Positions 2,095-11,417 of a DNA stretch of 64,000 nt are shown one piece after another. Position numbers and translations under genes: made by a program. The DNA is taken from the IMG/VR virus record IMGVR_UViG_3300032770_000009, positions 32,001-96,000 of that record, one strand, 5' to 3'. Every line of letters begins with the position of its first letter. Position 1 is the first letter of the stretch. The notes below the pieces were generated by a model. That model saw only the letters and a program-made list of their open reading frames with translations, searched no databases and was not told the DNA's origin. Source of the stretch: a virus.

Positions 2095-2378
2095 TAACTC
2101 CCCTGTAAAATCTTTTCTGCTATTACAGACATAGTGCAAGAATACTTGCCCTTGCTGCTGTTGTATGAATCTACAATACAAAGCCTGTCTTCGTCTTTAA
2201 TACTGAAATCGTAATCATACCCAAAAAACTCCTCAGCCGCTATGAACGCTTTTCTCTTCATATCATTAAACGTGTCACCATACACATGGACACTTAATCT
2301 TAGTCTCTCAGGCTCTCTAGGTGTACTCGGAATTGAGCTAGGAATGTACCTGTAACTATTAGAACTTAAAAGATCCAT
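2094..2378 (-). CDS. Hypothetical protein
   Basis: ORF track; translationally coupled on both sides. Confidence 0.55.
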   Translation of the reverse strand: MDLLSSNSYRYIPSSIPSTPREPERLRLSVHVYGDTFNDMKRKAFIAAEEFFGYDYDFSIKDEDRLCIVDSYNSSKGKYSCTMSVIAEKILQGS

Positions 2379-2929
2379 TATTTTCCTCCATTAGCTAGAA
2401 TATTTAGTGCTTCGAACATTGCTATTTTTTCTCTCATCCATTTAACTTCTCTAGCATCTGCTAGTGCGTTATGCTTGCTGTCATTTTTTCTGCCGGGATT
2501 ATAACCTAGTCGTTCCATCTCTTGAGCGACATCGTTAGTCCGCTGAACAAACGGCATATCAATCATACGGCCGTAAAGCTGAGCTAGCACAACATGATCA
2601 TATGCGGCAAAGTAAGCCCACAGAGAAGGATTAGCGTATTCGACTACAAAATCTAGAACTTCCTTAGCAATCTCTGAACGGCTCTTAACATTAGCATAAT
2701 CAGGATGACTTTCATCCCATACCGGGAACTTTGGATCTATAGGCTGTGCTAGCGGAAGATAAGGAAGAACGTTAGCTCTAATCCACATATTCTTAGCGGC
2801 GTCCTTGATTAGTTCAAGGTCGTCAACCACAGCATAATATTCCTGATTGTCTTCTCTCACCATACCTATTGAAATAAGCCTTATAGTTTCACCGTTCTCA
2901 AGAAACTCCGTATCATAATATATTTCCAT
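2378..2929 (-). CDS. DEDDh 3'-5' exoribonuclease, RNase AS (Rv2179c)-like
   Basis: YYDTEFLENG..LISIGMVREDN..EYYAV, WAYFAAYDHVVLAQLYGRM and HNALADA motifs. Confidence 0.85.
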   Translation of the reverse strand: MEIYYDTEFLENGETIRLISIGMVREDNQEYYAVVDDLELIKDAAKNMWIRANVLPYLPLAQPIDPKFPVWDESHPDYANVKSRSEIAKEVLDFVVEYANPSLWAYFAAYDHVVLAQLYGRMIDMPFVQRTNDVAQEMERLGYNPGRKNDSKHNALADAREVKWMREKIAMFEALNILANGGK

Positions 2930-3521: not shown

Positions 3522-4451
3522 TTAAGCGGTTGTTACTACGTCAATGAAGCCTGTTGCCTGTCCGTTAGGATCAGGAACACGATTACTGTAGCTAGCTCCT
3601 GCTGCTGCCGGAATAACTAGCATTGAGTATGTGTGGCCAGGTGAAAGACCCCATAGATAACCAACGCCTGAACATGTGTAACCGTAGTGAGGCTGGCCTG
3701 ATGGCGATGTCATACCGTAACCGAATGTTTCGGTTACAACGCAAGAACCATCTGCTGAGTTAACTGGGGGGATATCCCAGCCTACTGTTGCTGTTGAACG
3801 ACCGTCAGTGATGACATGTCCGCCTTCAACGTACGAACGAGTAGAAATCACAGGACTAGTTGTACTTGTGTCATCCCATGTTACAGAACCTTCTACAGGG
3901 TCATTCGTAGTGTTCGTAAACGTTAGTGGTGAGCCGCTAATAGTTGTCGATACTTCAAATGTCGCCGCTGTTACATTCGATGCGGTATTTACATTTGAAT
4001 CTACAACATATAGAGATACGGTTGTGTCTGAAGACGGTAGTACATAGGTGCTTGTATTACCGGGAGTCTGTTCCTGGGGCACGTTATCAAAGTTGTTAGC
4101 TGTTGCATTAGGTGCATTAACAGATAGCCCTGTAGCTGGTGTGTATGTTCCACCAGTTACTAGAGTGTTAACTGCACTAGCAATATCTGCCGCTAGTGTG
4201 GTACCAGTAGCATTTGGATTCTGCTGCTGAACAAACTGCTCTAGATCATAAGTTACGATGGTACCGTTTGATGGTACCGGGCTCTTGTTTGTGACACTCA
4301 GTGTTGACGGTAGCGTGCTACCAATAGGGAATGTAAAGTTAGTGGTTTCTGTAGTTGCGGCATGAGCTGTACTAGCAAAGCCAGCACCCATACCCATAGT
4401 CGCAACAGCGGCAACGCCTACGACTAGTGCTGCGAATTTTGTTCTAAACAT
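3522..4451 (-). CDS. Secreted Thr/Ser-rich beta-rich protein
   Basis: N-terminal signal peptide ending AHA-A; 309 aa. Confidence 0.65.
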   Translation of the reverse strand: MFRTKFAALVVGVAAVATMGMGAGFASTAHAATTETTNFTFPIGSTLPSTLSVTNKSPVPSNGTIVTYDLEQFVQQQNPNATGTTLAADIASAVNTLVTGGTYTPATGLSVNAPNATANNFDNVPQEQTPGNTSTYVLPSSDTTVSLYVVDSNVNTASNVTAATFEVSTTISGSPLTFTNTTNDPVEGSVTWDDTSTTSPVISTRSYVEGGHVITDGRSTATVGWDIPPVNSADGSCVVTETFGYGMTSPSGQPHYGYTCSGVGYLWGLSPGHTYSMLVIPAAAGASYSNRVPDPNGQATGFIDVVTTA

Positions 4452-6655: not shown

Positions 6656-8287
6656 CTAGACATCCCAGGGCCAACGACCATCTGAAGAATCTTCTATCAT
6701 TGGTATTAGTTTGAATGTAGCATCTGAAAGACCGCCAAGCTGGTACTTACGGTCCTTACCTACAGGAAGATCAGTAACTTTATAGCCTGCAAGATCGAAT
6801 GCATACACGTAAGCACTGCCAAAGTTGAAGTTAGCGACACCATAGCCATAGCCGTAGTAGCCATGGCCAGGGAAAGATTGTCCATCAGTGAAGATAAACA
6901 CTCTCTTGTGCTTATTCGGATCGAAGTGCTTCTGTAGTGCGTCTAGTGTTTGAGTACCATGTCCTACTTCACCGTTACGACGGTTAACTTCCTCCACTAT
7001 CTTAAGCACAGAAGTACCTGGCTTAACGGTTAGCTTCTTAGAAGAAGAAGCGAACATAACGATATCCACGTTACCTGGAGACTTAGCAGCCACAGCAGCA
7101 CCGAATAGAGCCGCTGCACCAGCACGTGACATCTTGCTCTTGTCAGATATAGGGGCATCCATTGAACCAGATGTGTCTACAAGCACCAAAGTTGAACTGT
7201 CGAACACCGGAATATTCTGAGTAGAATATTCTAGTGCCTGCTCAAGTGCCGCATGGTAGATAAGACTATTAGTCTCATTGAACGCAGAAAGGAATCTGAA
7301 CGGGAACTGTCTTGACTTCTCTATAACCTCCTTGTTGGTCAGTTTGTTGACAACAAGATCACGCACAGCAGTAGAAATACCTGCCTGCTCGAAATTGCGA
7401 AGGTTACGGATAAGAGCCATAATACCCATTGAAGGAATAACTGACTCCCACAACTTGTTCTTAGCCACTTTGGTACCGGCTAGAGAAAGAACATCTTCCC
7501 ATGTAAGACCAGCAGCCTTAACACGATCAGAGTCAAGAAGAGCCTTGACATCCTTAGCCGCATCAGCCCTCAATGACTGGTTAGCTGAAATCATAGGCAG
7601 CAAACTTGTGTCAGTATCAGAGCCATAACGCTTGCTGATTATAAACGAGAACAAAGCACCTTGCCATGGCTTAGAAGGCTTAACGTGAGTCAAATTCAAT
7701 ACATCAGAGAACTTAACTGAATATGCATCGGTGTTGTACTTAAGAACACTGTACTCGTTGTACAACTTAAGTACAGAATCAGAAATACCCCTCTTAACAG
7801 GCTTAGGTAGTTTACCAAACTTAGAAAGCCAGTAAGACACAAACTCGCCTGGTTCGTCAGCACGTGAAAGAACTTCAGAAATGATATGGCGATTCATGCC
7901 CTTCATGCCCATTGACGAAAGCAGCTCGTCTTCCGCTACAGCACCCTTGTTGTTAAGGCGAGCATACACAAAGTGAGCCGCACCTACTACAGACGCGGTA
8001 CGGATGTTAGCTTCTGATCTAAGCCAGATCAGAAACTTCATAGTCCATATAGGATCATAAACAGCTAGTGTCTCTACTAGATCGGTGAACCGCTTGTTAC
8101 GGTCATCACCCTTCTCATAGTAGGTCTTCTCACCGTAAAAGAGGTTTGCACCCAGACGGAAAAGCTCTGTCCTTTTGTCAGAAACAGCACCCTGACCGCC
8201 GCCGTAAGTACGAACACCCGGAACTACTGTTGAAGTCATTGGTGAGACTGGGCCACGGTTTACGGTCTTAGTGTTGATCTTTGACAT
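6656..8287 (-). CDS. rsr: Ro60/Rsr ribonucleoprotein (TROVE domain plus C-terminal vWA)
   Basis: TYGGG..ELFRL..FYGEKTYYE, WLRSEANIRT, RADEPGE, TWEDVLS, MALIRNLRNF, SRQFPFRFLSA and vWA MIDAS LVDTSGSM...FTDGQ; ATG at 8287 with GGAGG RBS. Confidence 0.93.
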   Translation of the reverse strand: MSKINTKTVNRGPVSPMTSTVVPGVRTYGGGQGAVSDKRTELFRLGANLFYGEKTYYEKGDDRNKRFTDLVETLAVYDPIWTMKFLIWLRSEANIRTASVVGAAHFVYARLNNKGAVAEDELLSSMGMKGMNRHIISEVLSRADEPGEFVSYWLSKFGKLPKPVKRGISDSVLKLYNEYSVLKYNTDAYSVKFSDVLNLTHVKPSKPWQGALFSFIISKRYGSDTDTSLLPMISANQSLRADAAKDVKALLDSDRVKAAGLTWEDVLSLAGTKVAKNKLWESVIPSMGIMALIRNLRNFEQAGISTAVRDLVVNKLTNKEVIEKSRQFPFRFLSAFNETNSLIYHAALEQALEYSTQNIPVFDSSTLVLVDTSGSMDAPISDKSKMSRAGAAALFGAAVAAKSPGNVDIVMFASSSKKLTVKPGTSVLKIVEEVNRRNGEVGHGTQTLDALQKHFDPNKHKRVFIFTDGQSFPGHGYYGYGYGVANFNFGSAYVYAFDLAGYKVTDLPVGKDRKYQLGGLSDATFKLIPMIEDSSDGRWPWDV

Positions 8288-8401: not shown

Positions 8402-8531
8402 TTACCTTGAGAATAAGATTAAGTCAGCATTTGGGATTATGAGTCCCAGTTCCCGCCATGGGAACCCGGGATGTGGCCCCGGGTAATAGAGTCGAACTAT
8501 TGAAGTATCTGACTAAAATGCACCAAAGTAA
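8402..8531 (-). ncRNA. Y-RNA-like unit 1: permuted tRNA(CAU) module, order T-acceptor-D-anticodon
   Basis: Scaffold GGUGCA...AUACUUC...UAUUCUC; insert AAUAG-UUCGACU-CUAUU, ACCCGGG/CCCGGGU, UCCC/GGGA, UGGGA-CUCAUAA-UCCCA. Confidence 0.75.
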
Positions 8532-8540
8532 GTTTATAAA

Positions 8541-8649
8541 TCCTGAGAATAATACATAAACAGCAAGGGAGCCATCCCATACGGCAAGGAATCGAACCTT
8601 AGCCCTGCGAATTGTTGGAGCAGAAGTAGCTGTTTATTTTGCACCAGGA
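8541..8649 (-). ncRNA. Y-RNA-like unit 2: T-arm-containing module
   Basis: Scaffold conserved; insert contains AAGG-UUCGAUU-CCUU. Confidence 0.7.
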
Positions 8650-8662
8650 ATATGAAGTTGTG

Positions 8663-8811
8663 TTGCCTAGAGTATACTGCGGTCACAGTATAGTTTCGTA
8701 AAGCTCTACCATTAAGCTACACCGGGAAGAAGCCCCGGCGTCAGGATTCGAACCTGAATCTCTTGATTAACAGTCAAATTGAAGTAACTGTGTACCTTTG
8801 CACCTAGGCAA
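8663..8811 (-). ncRNA. Y-RNA-like unit 3: permuted tRNA-Asn(GUU) module, order anticodon-T-acceptor-D
   Basis: UUGA-CUGUUAA-UCAA, CAGG-UUCGAAU-CCUG, CGCCGGG/CCCGGUG closed by a loop, GCUU-AAUGGUA-GAGC. Confidence 0.8.
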
Positions 8812-8817
8812 AGCTTA

Positions 8818-8980
8818 TTAATCCAGAGTTTAGGGCGACGACAGATGGCTTGTTATTTTATTTCGCGTCTTTCCAGTTAAACGACAGCCGCATGATTGAG
8901 CGGCCGACAGGATTCGAACCTGTATGACGGTCTCCGCATGACATATTTTGAAGTAACTGTAGTCTTTGCACCTGGATTAA
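8818..8980 (-). ncRNA. Y-RNA-like unit 4: YrlA-type T-acceptor-D module with no anticodon arm
   Basis: ACAGG-UUCGAAU-CCUGU, CGGCCGC/GCGGCUG closed by a loop, GUUU-AACUGGAA-AGAC. Confidence 0.8.
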
Positions 8981-8987
8981 GTTGTGT

Positions 8988-9114
8988 AGTCAAGAGTAAG
9001 AAACGATCTCGGAGTTTGAATCTTCAACAGGACTTGAACCTGTAACATTTTCTTTTAAAGAGAAACTATCTGCCATTGATATATGAAGTAACCGAAATCA
9101 AACGCACCTTGACT
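8988..9114 (-). ncRNA. Y-RNA-like unit 5: non-permuted tRNA module with UUA anticodon
   Basis: CUUCA/UGAAG acceptor-like stem, UAUC-AAUGGCA-GAUA, UUUCU-CUUUAAA-AGAAA, ACAGG-UUCAAGU-CCUGU. Confidence 0.75.
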
Positions 9115-9117
9115 TAG

Positions 9118-9190
9118 AGGTCCATGCCGGATTCGAACCGGATAAAGTGAGGTTGCAACTCACCGCCTAAGCCTTTTCAGCCACAGGACC
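9118..9190 (-). tRNA. tRNA-Cys(GCA)
   Basis: Cloverleaf; GTGAG-TTGCAAC-CTCAC; U73. Confidence 0.9.
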
Positions 9191-9195
9191 ATTAA

Positions 9196-9348
9196 ATTCC
9201 TAGAGATTGAGCACCTTACGGGTTAAAATATTTTATTTCACCATCAGCAGTTTAAGAGCTGCTGACTAGGATTTGAACCTAGAATCTCAAAATTGATAGT
9301 TTTGTGTGTTTACCTTTGAAGTAGCCGTTAGGTAGTGCACCTAGGAAT
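9196..9348 (-). ncRNA. Y-RNA-like unit 6: tRNA(AUC) module permuted in the D-loop
   Basis: GGUAAACAC, CAAAA-CUAUCAA-UUUUG, CUAGG-UUCAAAU-CCUAG, UCAGCAG/CUGCUGA closed by a loop, then UGGUG. Confidence 0.78.
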
Positions 9349-9387
9349 GTCCACAACACTAGGAGGTACAGTATGGTGGAATTTACT

Positions 9388-9519
9388 GTTCAGAGAATAA
9401 GTTAGACTCAGTGACGATTTCAACCTCCACACCCGCGTGTGGCGCTCTCTAGCTTGAGCTATAACGCAAGGACTTAACCTTTGCTGCATTAGAAGTAACT
9501 GTGTCTTTTGCACCTGAAC
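9388..9519 (-). ncRNA. Y-RNA-like unit 7: acceptor-D-anticodon-like module apparently opened at the T-arm
   Basis: UAAUGC/GCGUUA stem, UA-GCUC-AAGCUAGA-GAGC D-arm, CCACAC/GUGUGG hairpin. Confidence 0.65.
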
Positions 9520-9522
9520 TAG

Positions 9523-9595
9523 TAGTGATAACTGGATTTGAACCAGTGACCGGCAGGATATGAATCTGCTGCTCTACCAACTGAGCTATACCACT
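9523..9595 (-). tRNA. tRNA-Met or Ile2 (CAU)
   Basis: Cloverleaf; loop TTCATAT. Confidence 0.85.
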
Positions 9596-9635
9596 AGGTG
9601 TGGGACTTGCACCCACTAGTTATCCCAACTCTGTA

Positions 9636-9717
9636 AATCTGGAGTATAAATCGGCTACTGTGTCTTTTGGATAACTATAGCGTTGTTTGAAGTATCAGTG
9701 ACCTTCGCACCCAGATT
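9636..9717 (-). ncRNA. Y-RNA-like unit 8: minimal scaffold
   Basis: AAUCUGGGUGCGAAGG...AUACUUC...UAUACUCCAGAUU with a short insert and no tRNA arm. Confidence 0.7.
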
Positions 9718-9725
9718 AAGATTAC

Positions 9726-9820
9726 TGTTCTAGAATATATAACGCATCACGGTCGGTTTCTACCATGGTGGCTTAAAAGGCTACTGTTTGAAGTAACCGT
9801 AATGCTTTGCACCTAGAACA
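9726..9820 (-). ncRNA. Y-RNA-like unit 9: isolated Lys(UUU)-like anticodon stem-loop
   Basis: Scaffold conserved; insert GUAGC-CUUUUAA-GCCAC (one mismatch). Confidence 0.68.
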
Positions 9821-9823
9821 TAG

Positions 9824-9899
9824 ACGCGGGAGTGAGATTCGAACTCACGTAGAACGGCTTATGAGACCGTGCTGGAACCGAACTCCAGTCTATCCCGCA
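9824..9899 (-). tRNA. tRNA-Met(CAU), initiator-like
   Basis: Cloverleaf; weak 1:72 pair; loop CTCATAA. Confidence 0.8.
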
Positions 9900-9908
9900 G
9901 TGTTTAAA

Positions 9909-9990
9909 ACTCAGAGAATAATTTGAAAACAGCGCATTTACAGACCAATGTGAATAGTGTTTGAAGTAACTGTCTTCTTTGCACCTGAGT
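9909..9990 (-). ncRNA. Y-RNA-like unit 10: minimal scaffold
   Basis: ACUCAGGUGCAAAG...GUUACUUC...UAUUCUCUGAGU. Confidence 0.7.
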
Positions 9991-10056: not shown

Positions 10057-10059
10057 TTG

Positions 10060-10130
10060 TAGCCCTACAGGGACTCGAACCCTGTTTACAAGATTGAAAG
10101 TCTTGTTTCCTACCTATAGAAGATAGGGCC
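10060..10130 (-). tRNA. tRNA-Glu(UUC)
   Basis: Cloverleaf; CAAGA-CTTTCAA-TCTTG. Confidence 0.9.
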
Positions 10131-10197: not shown

Positions 10198-10250
10198 ATC
10201 CTACCAGACCCGCGCCCCTTTGTCAAATCGGGGCGAATCGGACATTTCGG
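10198..10250 (-). promoter_or_regulatory. Sigma70-type promoter plausibly driving tRNA-Glu, the Y-RNA array and rsr
   Basis: TTGACA-N17-TAGGAT; AATCGGACATTTC box upstream. Confidence 0.65.
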
Positions 10251-10403: not shown

Positions 10404-11417
10404 CTAATTAATAAGAAGAAGAGAAGTGCCGCCGATAAGTTTACGGTTCAAAGCAGTAGACTGCACAAAGATAGTATAGTTAGCGTACTGTGTACTAGAT
10501 GGATCTACATCTACTGTGTGATCAGGCAGGCCAAGCAACTGCCTAGCTTGAGGACCAGTGTAGATCTTCCCCCCGAAACCAATAGCGATATTCTTTTGCG
10601 GCTGAATTGTTTCCTTCTTAGTAAGTTGATAGTAAGCTTTACCGATAATAAGCTTCCTTCCAGTGTGGTCGTAGACGAATTCGTCTACTCTCTGGTCAAA
10701 AGGCACCGCTATAAGCTGGTGTGTTCCTGGTGACAAAGCATTAAGAGACAACTTAATGTCCGACTCTGTTACCCTATTAAGACTAAACAGGTTCTTACTG
10801 CTTCTGATACCCATAGACCTGTTAGTCATAAAGGTAGTAGAAGCTTGACGAACAATATGTCCTACTGTTTCAAGTCCCTTAGCAGATGTTGTATCCCAGA
10901 TTATTACGTTTTCTTTAGGGAATCCGTACTTTACAGCATAGTTAACACCTGTCTGGTTAGGTACGAAACAAGCATAAGACCAGTTTCCCTTGCCGTCAAG
11001 GACAGAAAAGTTTGACTTTAGAGTCAATGCACTGTGTGAAGAACTGTTTTCGTCACCATCAGTAATCACGTACATTAGGAAAGCGTGCTCACCGTATAGT
11101 GTAGCGGTCTTATCAAGGTCTTCCATTGCCTTAATGGTGGCGTCAATAAGAGCTGTACCACCAGAAGCACGGTACATTCCCTTAATAGACTGCATTCTCA
11201 GCACATCCATATCGTATGCAAGGCACTTGATATGATTGTATCCGGAAGAGAATGTGTATACAGTAACTCTTGTTTCCTGTTCCTGAGCTATAGATTGCTC
11301 AGCTAAGTGCTTTACTGTGTCATCTACTACACTAACTACAGTATTTGTTAAGTAATTCATGCTGCCTGATGCGTCTATAACTAAGACAACATGGTTAATA
11401 AAGTTTTTAAGTGCCAA
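10404..11417 (-). CDS. von Willebrand factor A domain protein
   Basis: VVLVIDASGSM MIDAS, GGTALIDA and VITDGDENSS; extra C-terminal domain. Confidence 0.85.
   Translation of the reverse strand: MALKNFINHVVLVIDASGSMNYLTNTVVSVVDDTVKHLAEQSIAQEQETRVTVYTFSSGYNHIKCLAYDMDVLRMQSIKGMYRASGGTALIDATIKAMEDLDKTATLYGEHAFLMYVITDGDENSSSHSALTLKSNFSVLDGKGNWSYACFVPNQTGVNYAVKYGFPKENVIIWDTTSAKGLETVGHIVRQASTTFMTNRSMGIRSSKNLFSLNRVTESDIKLSLNALSPGTHQLIAVPFDQRVDEFVYDHTGRKLIIGKAYYQLTKKETIQPQKNIAIGFGGKIYTGPQARQLLGLPDHTVDVDPSSTQYANYTIFVQSTALNRKLIGGTSLLLIN

What the first reader, a model, noticed from the sequence alone, without database searches (positions are those of the whole stretch)
8402..9519. The tRNA modules are circularly permuted at a different position in each unit
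Seen (minus strand, 5' to 3'): unit 1 is T-arm, loop-closed acceptor, D-arm, anticodon arm (CAU), so the scaffold enters at the variable loop. Unit 3 is anticodon arm (GUU), T, loop-closed acceptor, D, entering between D and anticodon arms. Unit 4 is T, acceptor, D, with the scaffold replacing the anticodon arm (classic YrlA topology). Unit 5 is D, anticodon, T in normal order, with the scaffold extending the acceptor end. Unit 6 is 3' half of D-arm, anticodon (AUC), T, closed acceptor, 5' half of D-arm, entering at the D-loop. Unit 7 is acceptor, D, anticodon-like hairpin, entering near the T-arm (weakest call). Known: YrlA uses the unit-4 topology. Inference: the array samples nearly every attachment point so that a different tRNA face is exposed from the Ro ring in each RNP. 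None has a free CCA end, so none should be chargeable without processing.
Basis: partly seen in the sequence, partly recalled or inferred. Interest (0 to 1): 0.88.

Follow-up and report, generated by a model that had tools for sequence, protein, structure and literature searches.

The report
Phage Y RNAs with permuted tRNA modules
Upstream of a phage Ro60 gene lie ten small stem-closed RNA genes of the Y RNA kind, several of which carry a tRNA look-alike whose arms come in a different circular order from unit to unit.

Summary
Window 8402..9990 (minus strand) carries ten units upstream of a Ro60 (TROVE+vWA) gene. Each has a unique closing stem and the motif GGUGC-N13/14-YACUUC (10 matches; 0.62 expected by chance). 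I circularised each apical module in silico and scored it with ARAGORN. Five modules scored like the phage's own tRNAs (100.6-123):

- Unit 1: Met-CAU, 104.6, opened in the variable loop.
- Unit 3: Asn-GUU, 122.6, opened at position 26/27.
- Unit 4: 115.1, opened two nucleotides into the anticodon stem.
- Unit 5: normal order, 111.6 (Rfam tRNA 50.8 bits).
- Unit 6: Asp-AUC, 117.6, opened in the D loop.

Unit 7 (acceptor-D-anticodon, no T arm) failed in the window, but its homologues pass. Controls reached 100 in 2 of 700 shuffles and 0 of 300 random genome segments.

The same topologies recur in related phage contigs (L026, L113, L118, L104) with compensatory stem changes. Units 3 and 4 are nearly one class, so there are five classes, not six.

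YrlA RNAs are already described as circularly permuted tRNAs. What is new is several opening points, some keeping an intact anticodon arm, in one conserved array. The "different face exposed" idea is untested. Verdict: a new variant of a known kind.

The parts
6656..8287 (-). Ro60 orthologue (TROVE + vWA), 543 aa from the ATG at 8287
   Evidence: ORF list. Pfam TROVE 1.2e-20 and VWA_2 6.6e-08. 3033 homologues at E<=0.001 among the 8000 candidates scored.
8402..8531 (-). Unit 1. Y-RNA-like scaffold with module order T arm (8501..8485), closed acceptor (8484..8464, loop GCCACAU), D-like hairpin (8461..8451), anticodon arm (8448..8432, CAU at 8441..8439). The scaffold enters in the variable loop.
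   Evidence: ARAGORN after re-permutation: Met(cat) 104.6, junction after nt 43. Homologues L113:3729-3873 and L104:403-528 keep the loop CUCAUAA while the stems covary.
8541..8649 (-). Unit 2. Scaffold with a T-arm-like hairpin and one more hairpin; not a convincing tRNA permutation.
   Evidence: Best re-permuted ARAGORN score 100.2, with mismatched stems.
8663..8811 (-). Unit 3. Anticodon arm (about 8778..8762, GUU at 8771..8769), T arm (8757..8741), closed acceptor (8740..8720), D arm (8717..8703). The scaffold enters between the D and anticodon arms.
   Evidence: Rfam partial hits: tRNA 7-64 at 8740-8795 and YrlA 24-84 at 8700-8764. ARAGORN Asn(gtt) 122.6, junction at 26/27.
8818..8980 (-). 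Unit 4. Hairpin with the 7-nt loop AUGCGGA (about 8942..8928), T arm (8923..8907), closed acceptor (8906..8885), D arm (8882..8867). This is the common YrlA arrangement.
   Evidence: ARAGORN 115.1 with the junction 2 nt into the anticodon stem. Homologues L113:3416, L118:2929 and L026:4413 have the same layout.
8988..9114 (-). Unit 5. tRNA-like module in normal order (9090..9018; D 9081..9067, anticodon arm 9065..9049 with UUA, T 9043..9027). Its acceptor 5' strand is the conserved ACUUCA of the scaffold.
   Evidence: Rfam tRNA 50.8 bits, model positions 3-68. ARAGORN tRNA-Stop(tta). R1 model 26.7 bits, E 0.0014.
9196..9348 (-). Unit 6. D-loop 3' part plus D-stem 3' strand (9314..9306), anticodon arm (9304..9288, AUC at 9297..9295), T arm (9282..9266), closed acceptor (9265..9244), D-stem 5' strand (9241..9234). 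The scaffold enters in the D loop.
   Evidence: Rfam tRNA 7-64 at 9265-9316. ARAGORN Asp(atc) 117.6, junction after nt 17. Shuffling the D halves reached the observed score in 1 of 100. Three homologues give Phe(gaa) with the junction after nt 13.
9388..9519 (-). Unit 7. Acceptor-like hairpin (9491..9462), D arm (9459..9444), anticodon-like arm with a 4-6-nt loop (9442..9427), no T arm. The scaffold takes the place of the T arm.
   Evidence: MFE fold. R1 model 13.8 bits, E 0.76 at 9427-9461. Homologues L118:2199-2234 score 24.3 bits and L026:3504-3538 score 18.8 bits, both with canonical CAU loops. ARAGORN found nothing in the window copy.
9636..9990 (-). Units 8-10 (9717..9636, 9820..9726, 9990..9909). 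Short scaffold-only units of 82-95 nt without a tRNA-like module; tRNA-Met-like 9899..9823 lies between units 10 and 9.
9119..9190 (-). Low-scoring tRNA-Cys(GCA)-like gene between units 6 and 5.
   Evidence: ARAGORN. Rfam tRNA 34.8 bits. Syntenic copies in L026, L113 and L118 score 32.5-35.1 bits.
9522..9595 (-). tRNA-Met(CAU) between units 8 and 7.
   Evidence: ARAGORN. Rfam tRNA 65.6 bits.
10198..10226 (-). Promoter-like site (TTGACA, 17 nt, TAGGAT, with TG) upstream of tRNA-Glu 10130..10059 and the array.
   Evidence: Consensus scan, 10 of 12 matches. The number of sites in the region (5) is not above shuffles (mean 3.7). L019 has a TTGACA...TATCAT site at the syntenic place, read from the sequence.

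Best explanation
The region is an array of ten paralogous Y-RNA-like genes of the YrlA/YrlB kind, encoded on the same strand directly upstream of a phage Ro60 gene.

**Scaffold.** Each RNA closes on itself through a terminal stem (P1). Then comes an internal loop that carries the conserved GUGCRAAG on the 5' side and AWWCU on the 3' side. A second stem (P2) follows, then the conserved GUUACUUC. This scaffold is the presumed Ro60-binding part.

**Module.** On top of it sits a variable module. In units 1 and 3-7 the module is a tRNA mimic made of real tRNA arms. The arms are taken as a window of about one tRNA length over a head-to-tail tRNA dimer, at different offsets:

- offset 0: unit 5, normal order;
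- D loop: unit 6;
- position 26-28: units 3 and 4;
- variable loop: unit 1;
- T arm: unit 7.

The scaffold therefore leaves the L-shaped fold at the acceptor end, the D loop, the top of the anticodon stem, the variable pocket or the T-arm position. From general tRNA knowledge, tRNAs tolerate extensions or length variation at most of these places: the acceptor end, the variable part of the D loop and the variable loop.

**Inferred, not shown.**
- The array is transcribed with its interleaved tRNAs and cut into single RNAs.
- Each RNA binds the phage Ro60.
- The tRNA mimic recruits host tRNA-binding or RNA-decay proteins (PNPase in the known cases) to Ro60.
- Different units offer different parts of the tRNA surface, including a free anticodon loop in units 1, 3, 5 and 6.
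For: **Array and scaffold.**
- The motif occurs 10 times against 0.62 expected.
- Each unit has its own P1, and a P2 formed by the middle of the motif.
- The same motif plus a closing stem (381 units) was found in 139 of 160 other Ro60 loci, usually 2-3 per locus.
- Published YrlA features match. They are encoded within 4 kb of Ro60 on the same strand, have a 5' motif GNCGAAN0-1G, a conserved YUAY before the variable region, and a T / closed acceptor / D domain (Chen 2014, sections read).

**tRNA likeness.**
- Re-permuted modules score 104.6-122.6. The phage's own tRNAs score 100.6-123.
- Controls reached 100 or more in 2 of 700 shuffles and 0 of 300 random segments.
- Rfam gives partial hits in native order.

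**Conservation of each topology** in L026, L113, L118 and L104, whose Ro60 is 46-52% identical. Stem positions with changes on both sides:

| Unit | Sequences | Acceptor | Anticodon stem |
|---|---|---|---|
| 1 | 3 | 7 of 7 | 5 of 5 |
| 6 | 4 | 7 of 7 | 3 of 5 |

- In the split D stem of unit 6, one pair changes G-C to U-A.
- These counts come from structures that ARAGORN fitted to each sequence separately, so they lean towards pairing.

**Dimer origin.**
- Closing loops start N-CCA in 20 of 108 cases in other loci and in unit 1 of the window.
- Several loops end in CAU, as do the leaders of several of the phage's own tRNAs.
- The dimeric-tRNA origin model is in print (Wang 2018 discussion).

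**Function by analogy.** Thermus phage phiLo Ro60 binds two phage Y-like RNAs and forms a complex with host PNPase (passages of PMC12135203).
Against: - No unit reaches the Rfam YrlA gathering score; the best is 26.9 bits against 69. None of 14 related loci did either.
- The ARAGORN score is carried mostly by the T/acceptor/D core. With the anticodon arm shuffled, units 3, 4 and 6 still score 100 or more in 100 of 100 trials. ARAGORN therefore distinguishes the opening points less sharply than the raw scores suggest.
- The D arm of unit 1 is atypical (4 bp, 5-nt loop). Its D+anticodon segment, and those of both homologues, give no hit with a model built from the phage's own tRNAs.
- Unit 7 in the window has a 4-6-nt anticodon-like loop and no ARAGORN hit.
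- For unit 6 in the relatives, a local hairpin (AAGUU/AACUU) competes with the trans D stem.
- Anticodons differ among homologues of units 5 and 6, so the triplet itself may not matter there.
- There is no evidence of expression, Ro60 binding or three-dimensional fold.
Confidence: 0.72

Rival explanations
1. There are fewer real topologies than claimed. The units are ordinary YrlA-type RNAs (T, closed acceptor, D) with extra hairpins. Some of the 'anticodon arm', 'split D arm' and 'T-arm replacement' readings are over-interpretation, so only two or three arrangements are real.
For: - With the anticodon arm shuffled, ARAGORN still gives 100 or more in 100 of 100 trials for units 3, 4 and 6. The same holds with the D halves of unit 6 shuffled.
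- Units 3 and 4 differ by about 2 nt in opening point. The hairpin of unit 4 can be drawn as Chen's V arm or as an anticodon arm.
- Unit 7 fails in the window.
- Unit 1 and its homologues fail the D+anticodon model.
Against: - The observed scores exceed nearly all partial shuffles: 0, 1, 0 and 0 of 100 reached them, and 1 of 100 for the D halves.
- The 7-nt loops have U at the second position and a purine after the triplet, and stand at the canonical spacing from the T or D arms.
- The loop CUCAUAA is identical in 3 of 3 unit-1 homologues while all 5 stem pairs change.
- The D-loop-like stretch before the anticodon arm of unit 6 is kept in 3 relatives and scores 17.0 bits with the D+anticodon model in two of them.
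- Unit-7 homologues score 24.3 and 18.8 bits.
Confidence: 0.15
2. They are true permuted or split tRNA genes. RNase P opens the acceptor loop, the 3' end is trimmed to CCA, and the scaffold is either removed and the ends ligated or simply kept as a helper helix. The result is working tRNAs (Met, Asn, Asp or Phe, suppressors).
For: - The acceptor stems are 7 bp.
- Unit 1 has G-CCA at the right place, and 20 of 108 closing loops elsewhere start N-CCA.
- The anticodon loops are canonical.
- M. smegmatis YrlA is cut by RNase P and receives CCA (Chen 2014 heading; Wang 2018 passage).
- Permuted tRNA genes exist in algae and an archaeon (Wang 2018 discussion).
Against: - No RtcB and no CCA-adding enzyme family were found in the 116,568-bp record.
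- No bacterial splicing endonuclease is known (Wang 2018 discussion).
- The phage already has ordinary tRNA-Met, Asn, Asp and Phe genes.
- Anticodons drift among homologues of units 5 and 6.
- Unit 6 has A at the first anticodon position, unit 1 has an atypical D arm, and unit 5 has only 5 acceptor pairs.
- Every unit keeps the Ro60-type scaffold.
Confidence: 0.07
3. The modules are non-functional debris: tRNA pseudogenes and recombination scars in a tRNA-rich island.
For: - The array lies among 33 ARAGORN-called tRNA genes.
- A lone T-arm-like remnant lies just 5' of tRNA-Met, at about 9596-9618.
Against: - The same unit order and topologies are kept in phages whose Ro60 is only 46-52% identical, with compensatory stem changes.
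- Every unit keeps P1, P2 and the conserved motif.
Confidence: 0.03

Closest known systems
YrlA RNAs (Y RNA-like A; Rfam RF02553; Chen et al. 2014, PMC4201824; crystal structure in Wang et al. 2018, bioRxiv 10.1101/312249)
   Same: Both are encoded next to Ro60 on the same strand. Both have a terminal stem with a Ro60-type motif near the 5' end, a YUAY element before the variable region, and a tRNA-like domain with T arm, loop-closed acceptor and D arm. YrlA is already described in print as resembling a circularly permuted tRNA and as possibly derived from a dimeric tRNA. Unit 4 has this arrangement.
   Different: The solved S. Typhimurium YrlA lacks an anticodon loop and is opened only at the anticodon end (Wang 2018). 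Here units 1, 3, 5 and 6 keep a full anticodon arm, and the opening point is the variable loop, position 26, the acceptor end or the D loop. Unit 7 lacks the T arm. There are ten units in a row rather than one to a few. None reaches the Rfam gathering score (best 26.9 bits against 69).
Deinococcus radiodurans Yrn1
   Same: It is a Ro60-bound Y RNA with tRNA-like features in another arm order. Chen 2014 notes that the orientation of its T and D arms, and the identity of the stem-loop between them, differ from YrlA (passage read).
   Different: Yrn1 is a single RNA in another organism, with a 6-nt 'anticodon' loop and no clear D arm. Here several orders coexist in one array and score as tRNA after re-permutation.
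Circularly permuted tRNA genes of red and green algae and one archaeon (Soma 2007; Maruyama 2010; Chan 2011, as cited in Wang 2018)
   Same: The 3' part of the tRNA lies upstream of the 5' part, the acceptor stem is closed by a loop, and opening points vary among genes.
   Different: Those are precursors of working tRNAs, matured through a circular intermediate by a splicing endonuclease and a ligase. Here the ends run into a Ro60-binding scaffold, and no such enzymes were found in the phage (for RtcB).
Thermus phage phiLo Ro60 with Yrl1 and Yrl2 (PMC12135203)
   Same: A phage Ro60 with Y-like RNA genes upstream. Binding to Ro60 and to host PNPase was shown there (passages read).
   Different: There are two RNAs, and they are not described as tRNA-like: a term search of that paper found 'tRNA-like' 0 times.
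Two-piece (permuted) tmRNA genes of some bacteria
   Same: A bacterial tRNA-like domain encoded in circularly permuted order and cut into two pieces that stay paired (recalled; the only trace in a call is ARAGORN's help text on permuted tmRNA).
   Different: Different RNA family and function (ribosome rescue), with a single opening point.

Membership tests
YrlA-type Y RNA (Chen et al. 2014) | Encoded within about 4 kb of a Ro60 (TROVE) gene and on the same strand | tested here: met
   The units lie at 8402..9990(-) and Ro60 at 6656..8287(-). The criterion is as stated in Chen 2014.
YrlA-type Y RNA (Chen et al. 2014) | The 5' and 3' ends pair into a long stem that holds the Ro60 site | tested here: met
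   P1 of 5-9 bp, different in each of the 10 units, plus P2. All 10 P1 scores are 7 or more, against 338 of 2000 random anchors.
YrlA-type Y RNA (Chen et al. 2014) | Motif GNCGAAN0-1G near the 5' end | tested here: inconclusive
   The units carry GGUGCRAAG or variants, which is close to but not identical with the published consensus. The same variant is common at other Ro60 loci.
YrlA-type Y RNA (Chen et al. 2014) | tRNA-like domain with T arm, loop-closed acceptor and D arm, in that order | tested here: met
   Units 1, 3 and 4 have this order. Unit 6 has T and closed acceptor but a split D arm. Units 5 and 7 do not have it. Units 8-10 have no module.
YrlA-type Y RNA (Rfam RF02553) | Score at or above the Rfam gathering threshold (69 bits) | tested here: not met
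   The best hit is 26.9 bits at 8700-8764. There were 0 YrlA hits at gathering in 14 related loci.
YrlA-type Y RNA | Bound by Ro60; carries tRNA modifications (pseudouridine 55, dihydrouridine) | not testable with these tools
   No RNA data; no RNA run holds the stretch.
Canonical tRNA (Rfam RF00005) | Contiguous cloverleaf above the gathering score (29 bits) | tested here: not met
   Only unit 5 passes (50.8 bits, model positions 3-68). Units 3 and 6 give partial hits of 25.6 and 24.8 bits, and units 1, 4 and 7 give none.
Canonical tRNA | Free 5' end and 3' NCCA end on a 7-bp acceptor stem | tested here: not met
   The acceptor stems are closed by loops of 7-8 nt in units 1, 3, 4 and 6. In unit 5, 5 pairs run on into the scaffold.
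Circularly permuted tRNA gene (algal/archaeal type) | 3' part upstream of 5' part, joined through the acceptor ends | tested here: met
   Units 1, 3, 4 and 6 score 104.6-122.6 after re-permutation.
Circularly permuted tRNA gene (algal/archaeal type) | Matured to a working tRNA through a bulge-helix-bulge cut, ligation and opening of the acceptor loop | not testable with these tools
   No RtcB family match in the phage record. I did not look for bulge-helix-bulge motifs.

The most novel reading that the evidence does not exclude
The units that keep a full anticodon arm and a 7-bp acceptor stem are opened by host RNase P in the closing loop and trimmed to CCA. The clearest case is unit 1, whose closing loop encodes G-CCA. 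This yields two-piece tRNA-like molecules with a free CCA end, held together by the acceptor stem and the Ro60 scaffold. They could then be recognised, and perhaps aminoacylated or cut, like real tRNAs while sitting on Ro60. Examples would be decoys or sensors for host anticodon nucleases, or a way to bring Ro60 and PNPase to tRNA-handling enzymes. The array would then be a set of Ro60-tethered tRNA surrogates of different identity (Met, Asn, Asp or Phe, stop-codon readers).
Probability: 0.1. Interest if true: 0.9.

Novelty: new variant of a known kind. Interest (0 to 1): 0.62.

Why it matters
Y RNAs are thought to tether Ro60 to an effector through their variable module. The published bacterial picture is one tRNA-mimic design, YrlA, opened at the anticodon end and lacking an anticodon loop.

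Here one conserved phage array holds five different ways of joining the same scaffold to a tRNA fold, and four of them keep a complete anticodon arm.

- **Natural experiment.** It shows which tRNA surfaces matter for Ro60 RNP function.
- **Support for an origin model.** The sequences fit the published idea that these RNAs arose from tRNA dimers: each module reads as a window over a dimer, and closing loops look like a CCA end plus a tRNA leader.
- **A pointer to function.** Phage Ro60 may work with tRNA-recognising host factors.
- **A practical point for annotation.** Such units are missed or mis-called by standard pipelines. In Streptomyces phage LuckySocke an annotated tRNA-Ser(gct) overlaps a Y-type unit.

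Tried and rejected
**My first reading of the motif was wrong.** I took it for a local hairpin (GGUGC pairing with ACUUC), or for long-range pairing between neighbouring motifs. I dropped both when each motif turned out to be bracketed by its own P1 and its middle pairs with a distal segment as P2.

**Searches that gave little or nothing.**
- Exact-pattern scan of viral contigs: 16 single hits, about chance level. Only L019 proved a relative (6 relaxed motifs).
- The search for related loci with the single Ro60 protein found nothing. The alignment-based scans worked.
- blastn of the array against cultured phages hit only tRNA-sized pieces.
- Rfam YrlA at gathering: no hit in the window or in 14 loci.
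- RtcB and CCA-adding enzyme families: no match in the phage record.

**Half-tRNA covariance model R1** (D+anticodon arms, built from 21 of the phage's tRNAs).
- It supports unit 5 and the homologues of unit 7.
- It is inconclusive for unit 7 of the window.
- It is negative for unit 1 and its homologues.
- A first alignment of 28 tRNA pieces was discarded because 7 rows were misaligned or forced gap columns. I kept 21 of the 28.

**Promoter and terminator scan.** The counts are not above shuffles. The one strong promoter-like site is only a lead.

**Expression.** No RNA holder is listed for the stretch.

**Literature.** Four searches found no paper describing several tRNA permutation points in Y RNAs, or permuted tRNA in bacteriophages. 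The library lacks many subscription papers.
- Sim and Wolin 2018 and Sim et al. 2020 were not held.
Chen 2014's Supplemental Tables S1/S2 and Fig. S1 list the phage YrlAs and may already show some of these forms.

**Rows dropped.**
- In the survey of other loci I left out L001-L007 (own genome) and L008-L023 (pattern hits, including L019, which is the same contig as L026).
- Units with a P1 score below 7.5 were dropped.
- Duplicate unit sequences were collapsed from 381 to 349.
- L026:4266 was left out of the unit-3 covariation count because its parse was irregular.


Full report
**What is there.** The window is bases 32001-96000 of a 116,568-bp virus record rated complete. A 543-aa ORF at 6656..8287 on the minus strand is a Ro60 orthologue: Pfam TROVE 1.2e-20 and VWA_2 6.6e-08, with thousands of homologues. 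The window carries 33 ARAGORN-called tRNA genes, all on the minus strand. Upstream of Ro60 on the same strand, between 8502 and 9985, the pattern GGTGC-N13/14-YACTTC occurs 10 times. Chance expects 0.62, and none of 100 shuffles reached 10. It occurs nowhere else in the 64 kb.

**Anatomy of a unit.** Each motif is bracketed by a closing stem, P1. The 5-9 bases just 5' of GUGC pair with bases just 3' of a conserved AWWCU, 80-165 nt downstream, and the stem sequence differs in every unit. All ten P1 scores are 7.0 or higher. Only 338 of 2000 random anchors reach 7 and 42 of 2000 reach 9. So single weak stems are not significant, but the set is. In the minimum-free-energy folds the variable middle of the motif pairs with a segment just before AWWCU, giving a second stem, P2. 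The conserved GUUACUUC then opens a multi-branched apical region. The layout is therefore:

- P1;
- an internal loop with GUGCRAAG on the 5' side and AWWCU on the 3' side;
- P2;
- GUUACUUC;
- the module.

This is the Y RNA plan. Chen et al. 2014 (sections read) describe YrlA RNAs as encoded within 4 kb of Ro60 on the same strand. They have a 5' motif GNCGAAN0-1G, a conserved YUAY before the variable region, and a T arm / closed acceptor / D arm domain. Here the motif is a near variant of theirs, and UUAC fits YUAY.

The same motif plus closing stem (381 units, 349 distinct) is present in 139 of 160 other Ro60 loci that I fetched from viral and metagenome contigs. There are usually 2-3 units per locus, and the 3' element is mostly GAUCU. 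Two cultured Streptomyces phages have 2 and 1 such units in the unannotated gap before Ro60: pSt2308 and LuckySocke, with Ro60 40% and 38% identical.

| Unit | Coordinates |
|---|---|
| 1 | 8531..8402 |
| 2 | 8649..8541 |
| 3 | 8811..8663 |
| 4 | 8980..8818 |
| 5 | 9114..8988 |
| 6 | 9348..9196 |
| 7 | 9519..9388 |
| 8 | 9717..9636 |
| 9 | 9820..9726 |
| 10 | 9990..9909 |

The near-normal tRNA genes lie between units, not inside them: 9190..9119, 9595..9522, 9899..9823 and 10130..10059. The only ARAGORN tRNA call that lies inside a unit is 9090..9018, which is the module of unit 5.

**Test of the permutation claim.** For each unit I took the sequence inside P1 and trimmed its two ends over a grid (up to 2520 trims per unit). 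I joined each trimmed piece to itself and ran ARAGORN, keeping hits that span the joint. The phage's own tRNAs score 100.6-123. Results:

| Unit | Best re-permuted hit | Score | Joint after tRNA nt | Place of the joint |
|---|---|---|---|---|
| 1 | Met(CAU) | 104.6 | 43 | variable loop |
| 3 | Asn(GUU) | 122.6 | 27 | between D and anticodon arms |
| 4 | "Arg(GCG)" | 115.1 | 28 | 2 nt into the anticodon stem |
| 5 | stop-reading UUA | 111.6 | normal order | acceptor end |
| 6 | Asp(AUC) | 117.6 | 17 | D loop |
| 2 | irregular structure | 100.2 | 36 | not credible |
| 7 | none | - | - | - |

Units 8-10 are too short to hold a tRNA-like module.

Rfam on the native sequence agrees where it can:

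- tRNA 3-68 at 9022-9088, 50.8 bits;
- tRNA 7-64 (anticodon plus T arm) at 8740-8795 and at 9265-9316;
- YrlA model positions 24-84 (T, closed acceptor, D) at 8700-8764.

**Controls.**

- Whole-module dinucleotide shuffles, 100 per unit for 7 units, reached 100 or more in 2 of 700.
- Random 135-nt pieces of the same genome did so in 0 of 300.
- Shuffling only the 17-nt anticodon arm reached the observed score in 0, 1, 0 and 0 of 100 trials for units 1, 3, 4 and 6.
- In that same test the score stayed at 100 or more in all 100 trials for units 3, 4 and 6. ARAGORN's verdict "tRNA-like" therefore rests mainly on the T, acceptor and D parts, and the placement of the anticodon arm adds a smaller margin.
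- Shuffling the two halves of the split D arm of unit 6 reached the observed score in 1 of 100.
- A covariance model of the D arm plus anticodon arm, built from 21 of the phage's own tRNAs, gave the following over the 64 kb: 26.7 bits (E 0.0014) for unit 5; 13.8 bits (E 0.76) for unit 7; 15.3 bits (E 0.37) at the D arm of unit 3; and no hit for unit 1.

The D arm of unit 1 is thus only a D-like hairpin: a 4-bp stem with a 5-nt loop containing GG.

**Relatives.** Four contigs share the gene order tRNA-Glu, short units, tRNA-Met, units, tRNA-Cys-like, units, Ro60. They are L026 (the same contig as L019 and L124), L113, L118 and the partial L104. Their Ro60 is 46-52% identical. The unusual topologies recur at the same places:

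- **Unit 6 type.** L113:3016-3175, L118:2501-2658 and L026:3818-3971 are all Phe(GAA), score 114.2-115.0, with the joint after nt 13.
- **Unit 1 type.** L113:3729-3873 (110.5) and L104:403-528 (103.5) are both Met(CAU).
- **Unit 5 type.** Found in L118, L026, L113 and L115.
- **Unit 4 type.** Found in L113, L118 and L026.
- **Unit 7 type.** L118:2146-2274 and L026:3453-3578 have canonical loops with CAU. They score 24.3 and 18.8 bits with the D+anticodon model.

Comparing ARAGORN's fitted stems among homologues gives many changes on both sides of a pair:

| Unit | Sequences | Acceptor | Anticodon stem |
|---|---|---|---|
| 1 | 3 | 7 of 7 | 5 of 5, with the loop CUCAUAA identical |
| 6 | 4 | 7 of 7 | 3 of 5 |

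One pair of the trans D stem of unit 6 changes G-C to U-A. These structures were fitted to each sequence separately, so the counts lean towards pairing. The independent point is that the same arm order returns with different stem sequences. In the relatives of unit 6 a local hairpin overlaps the 5' strand of the D stem and competes with it. Yet the stretch before the anticodon arm reads like the 3' part of a D loop plus a D-stem strand, and it scores 17.0 bits with the D+anticodon model in L113 and L118.

- 117 of 349 distinct units score 105 or more with the joint inside the anticodon arm.
- In 60 of those 117 the joint falls after 2 nt of the stem, exactly as in unit 4.
- ARAGORN reads the hairpin 5' of the T arm as an anticodon arm, whereas Chen et al. 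draw it as a variable arm with the scaffold as the anticodon stem. Both drawings describe the same order.
- Unit 3, with a fully local 5-bp stem and a canonical 7-nt loop, is a neighbour of this class.

I therefore count five classes in six units: normal (5), D loop (6), top of the anticodon stem (3 and 4), variable loop (1) and T-arm replacement (7). Minority classes also occur outside this phage family. Among distinct units scoring 105 or more there are 11 with the joint at position 26, 8 at the acceptor 5' end, 7 in the variable region and 4 in the D arm.

**Origin.**

- The loops that close the acceptor stems look like a tRNA 3' end followed by a tRNA leader. In other loci 20 of 108 loops of at least 4 nt start N-CCA, against about 1 in 64 by chance. 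Unit 1 of the window reads G-CCA-CAU.
- Several loops end in CAU, as do the leaders of several of the phage's own tRNAs.
- Every module can be described as a window of about one tRNA length over a head-to-tail tRNA dimer, at a different offset.
- This extends the dimeric-tRNA origin model cited by Wang et al. 2018 (discussion read).

From general tRNA knowledge, the offsets fall mostly where tRNAs tolerate extra sequence or extension: the acceptor end, the variable part of the D loop, the variable loop and the ends of stems.

**How it probably works.** What is shown is sequence, predicted pairing and conservation. The following is inferred.

- The array is probably transcribed together with its tRNAs. 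A promoter-like site lies at 10226..10198 and no terminator-like site was found on that strand, but the counts are not above shuffles.
- Each unit probably becomes a separate RNA bound by the phage Ro60 at the internal loop between P1 and P2.
- The tRNA mimic probably serves as the effector-binding part, as proposed for YrlA. For a Thermus phage, Ro60, two Y-like RNAs and host PNPase were shown to form a complex (PMC12135203, passages).
- Because the scaffold leaves the fold at different sites, the free surfaces differ. The anticodon loop is free in units 1, 3, 5 and 6. The D-loop/T-loop corner is intact in units 1, 3, 4 and 5, but it is occupied or missing in units 6 and 7.
- The anticodon is conserved in the unit 1 and unit 7 types (CAU), and the loop is conserved in the unit 4 type.
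- It varies in the unit 5 type (UUA, CUA, GUA, UUC, UCA) and the unit 6 type (AUC against GAA). This argues against a decoding role there.
- The phage has no RtcB or CCA-adding enzyme family match.

**Novelty.**

- YrlA as a circularly permuted tRNA mimic, its RNase P cleavage and CCA addition in M. smegmatis, and a different arm order in Yrn1 are all in print.
- Four searches of the held library found no description of several opening points, of modules with intact anticodon arms, or of 8-10-unit arrays.
- I rate the finding a new variant of a known kind.

**Limits.**

- There is no expression data.
- No Infernal scoring of re-permuted sequence was possible.
- There are only 2-4 homologues per unit type.
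- Closer relatives could not be fetched.

Noticed in passing
window 9018-9090 (-); L118:2814-2887; L115:3148-3220; L026:4139-4212; L113:2901-2973: The normal-order module of unit 5 and its homologues carry UUA (window), CUA (L118) and UCA (L115), which would read the three stop codons. L026 has GUA and L113 has UUC at the same place. Either the triplet is unconstrained, or these are stop-codon-reading mimics.
   Followed up: partly
window about 9596-9618 (-): A lone T-arm-like hairpin sits directly 5' of tRNA-Met 9595..9522. Together with the tRNA's acceptor and D arm it gives a weak Rfam YrlA hit (21.9 bits at 9571-9618). It looks like the remnant of a tandem tRNA, that is, the raw material of the dimer model.
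   Followed up: no
window 9119-9190 (-); L026:4033-4104; L113:3180-3251; L118:2714-2784: A low-scoring tRNA-Cys(GCA)-like gene (Rfam 34.8 bits, with mismatches in the acceptor stem) is kept between the D-loop-type and normal-order units in four phages, at 32.5-35.1 bits in the relatives.
   Followed up: no
window 9823-9899 (-): ARAGORN calls a 77-nt tRNA-Met(CAU) with score 103.1. It does not reach the Rfam tRNA gathering score, and its best weak hit is tRNA-Sec at 24.4 bits.
   Followed up: no
L185 (Streptomyces phage LuckySocke) 3774-3847 against Y-type unit 3767-3916: The GenBank record annotates a tRNA-Ser(gct) that lies inside a Ro60-linked Y-type unit: scaffold, anticodon-like hairpin, T arm, closed acceptor, D arm. 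It is probably a mis-call of a Y RNA.
   Followed up: partly
other Ro60 loci (L024-L183): In 20 of 108 cases the acceptor-closing loop of a Y-type tRNA mimic begins with N-CCA. This is far above chance, and I did not see it mentioned in the paper passages I read.
   Followed up: partly
L019 about 765-1100, 1341-1516 and 2331-2440 (+): In the relative, apparent small protein-coding stretches lie between Y units, read from the sequence. The first lies between the first unit and tRNA-Met. The window's array has no such inserts. They were not analysed.
   Followed up: no
window 10404-11417 (-): A 337-aa vWA-domain protein (VWA 2.8e-08) lies just upstream of the promoter-like site and the array. 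A similar coding stretch precedes the array in L019. Any link to Ro60's own vWA domain is unknown.
   Followed up: no
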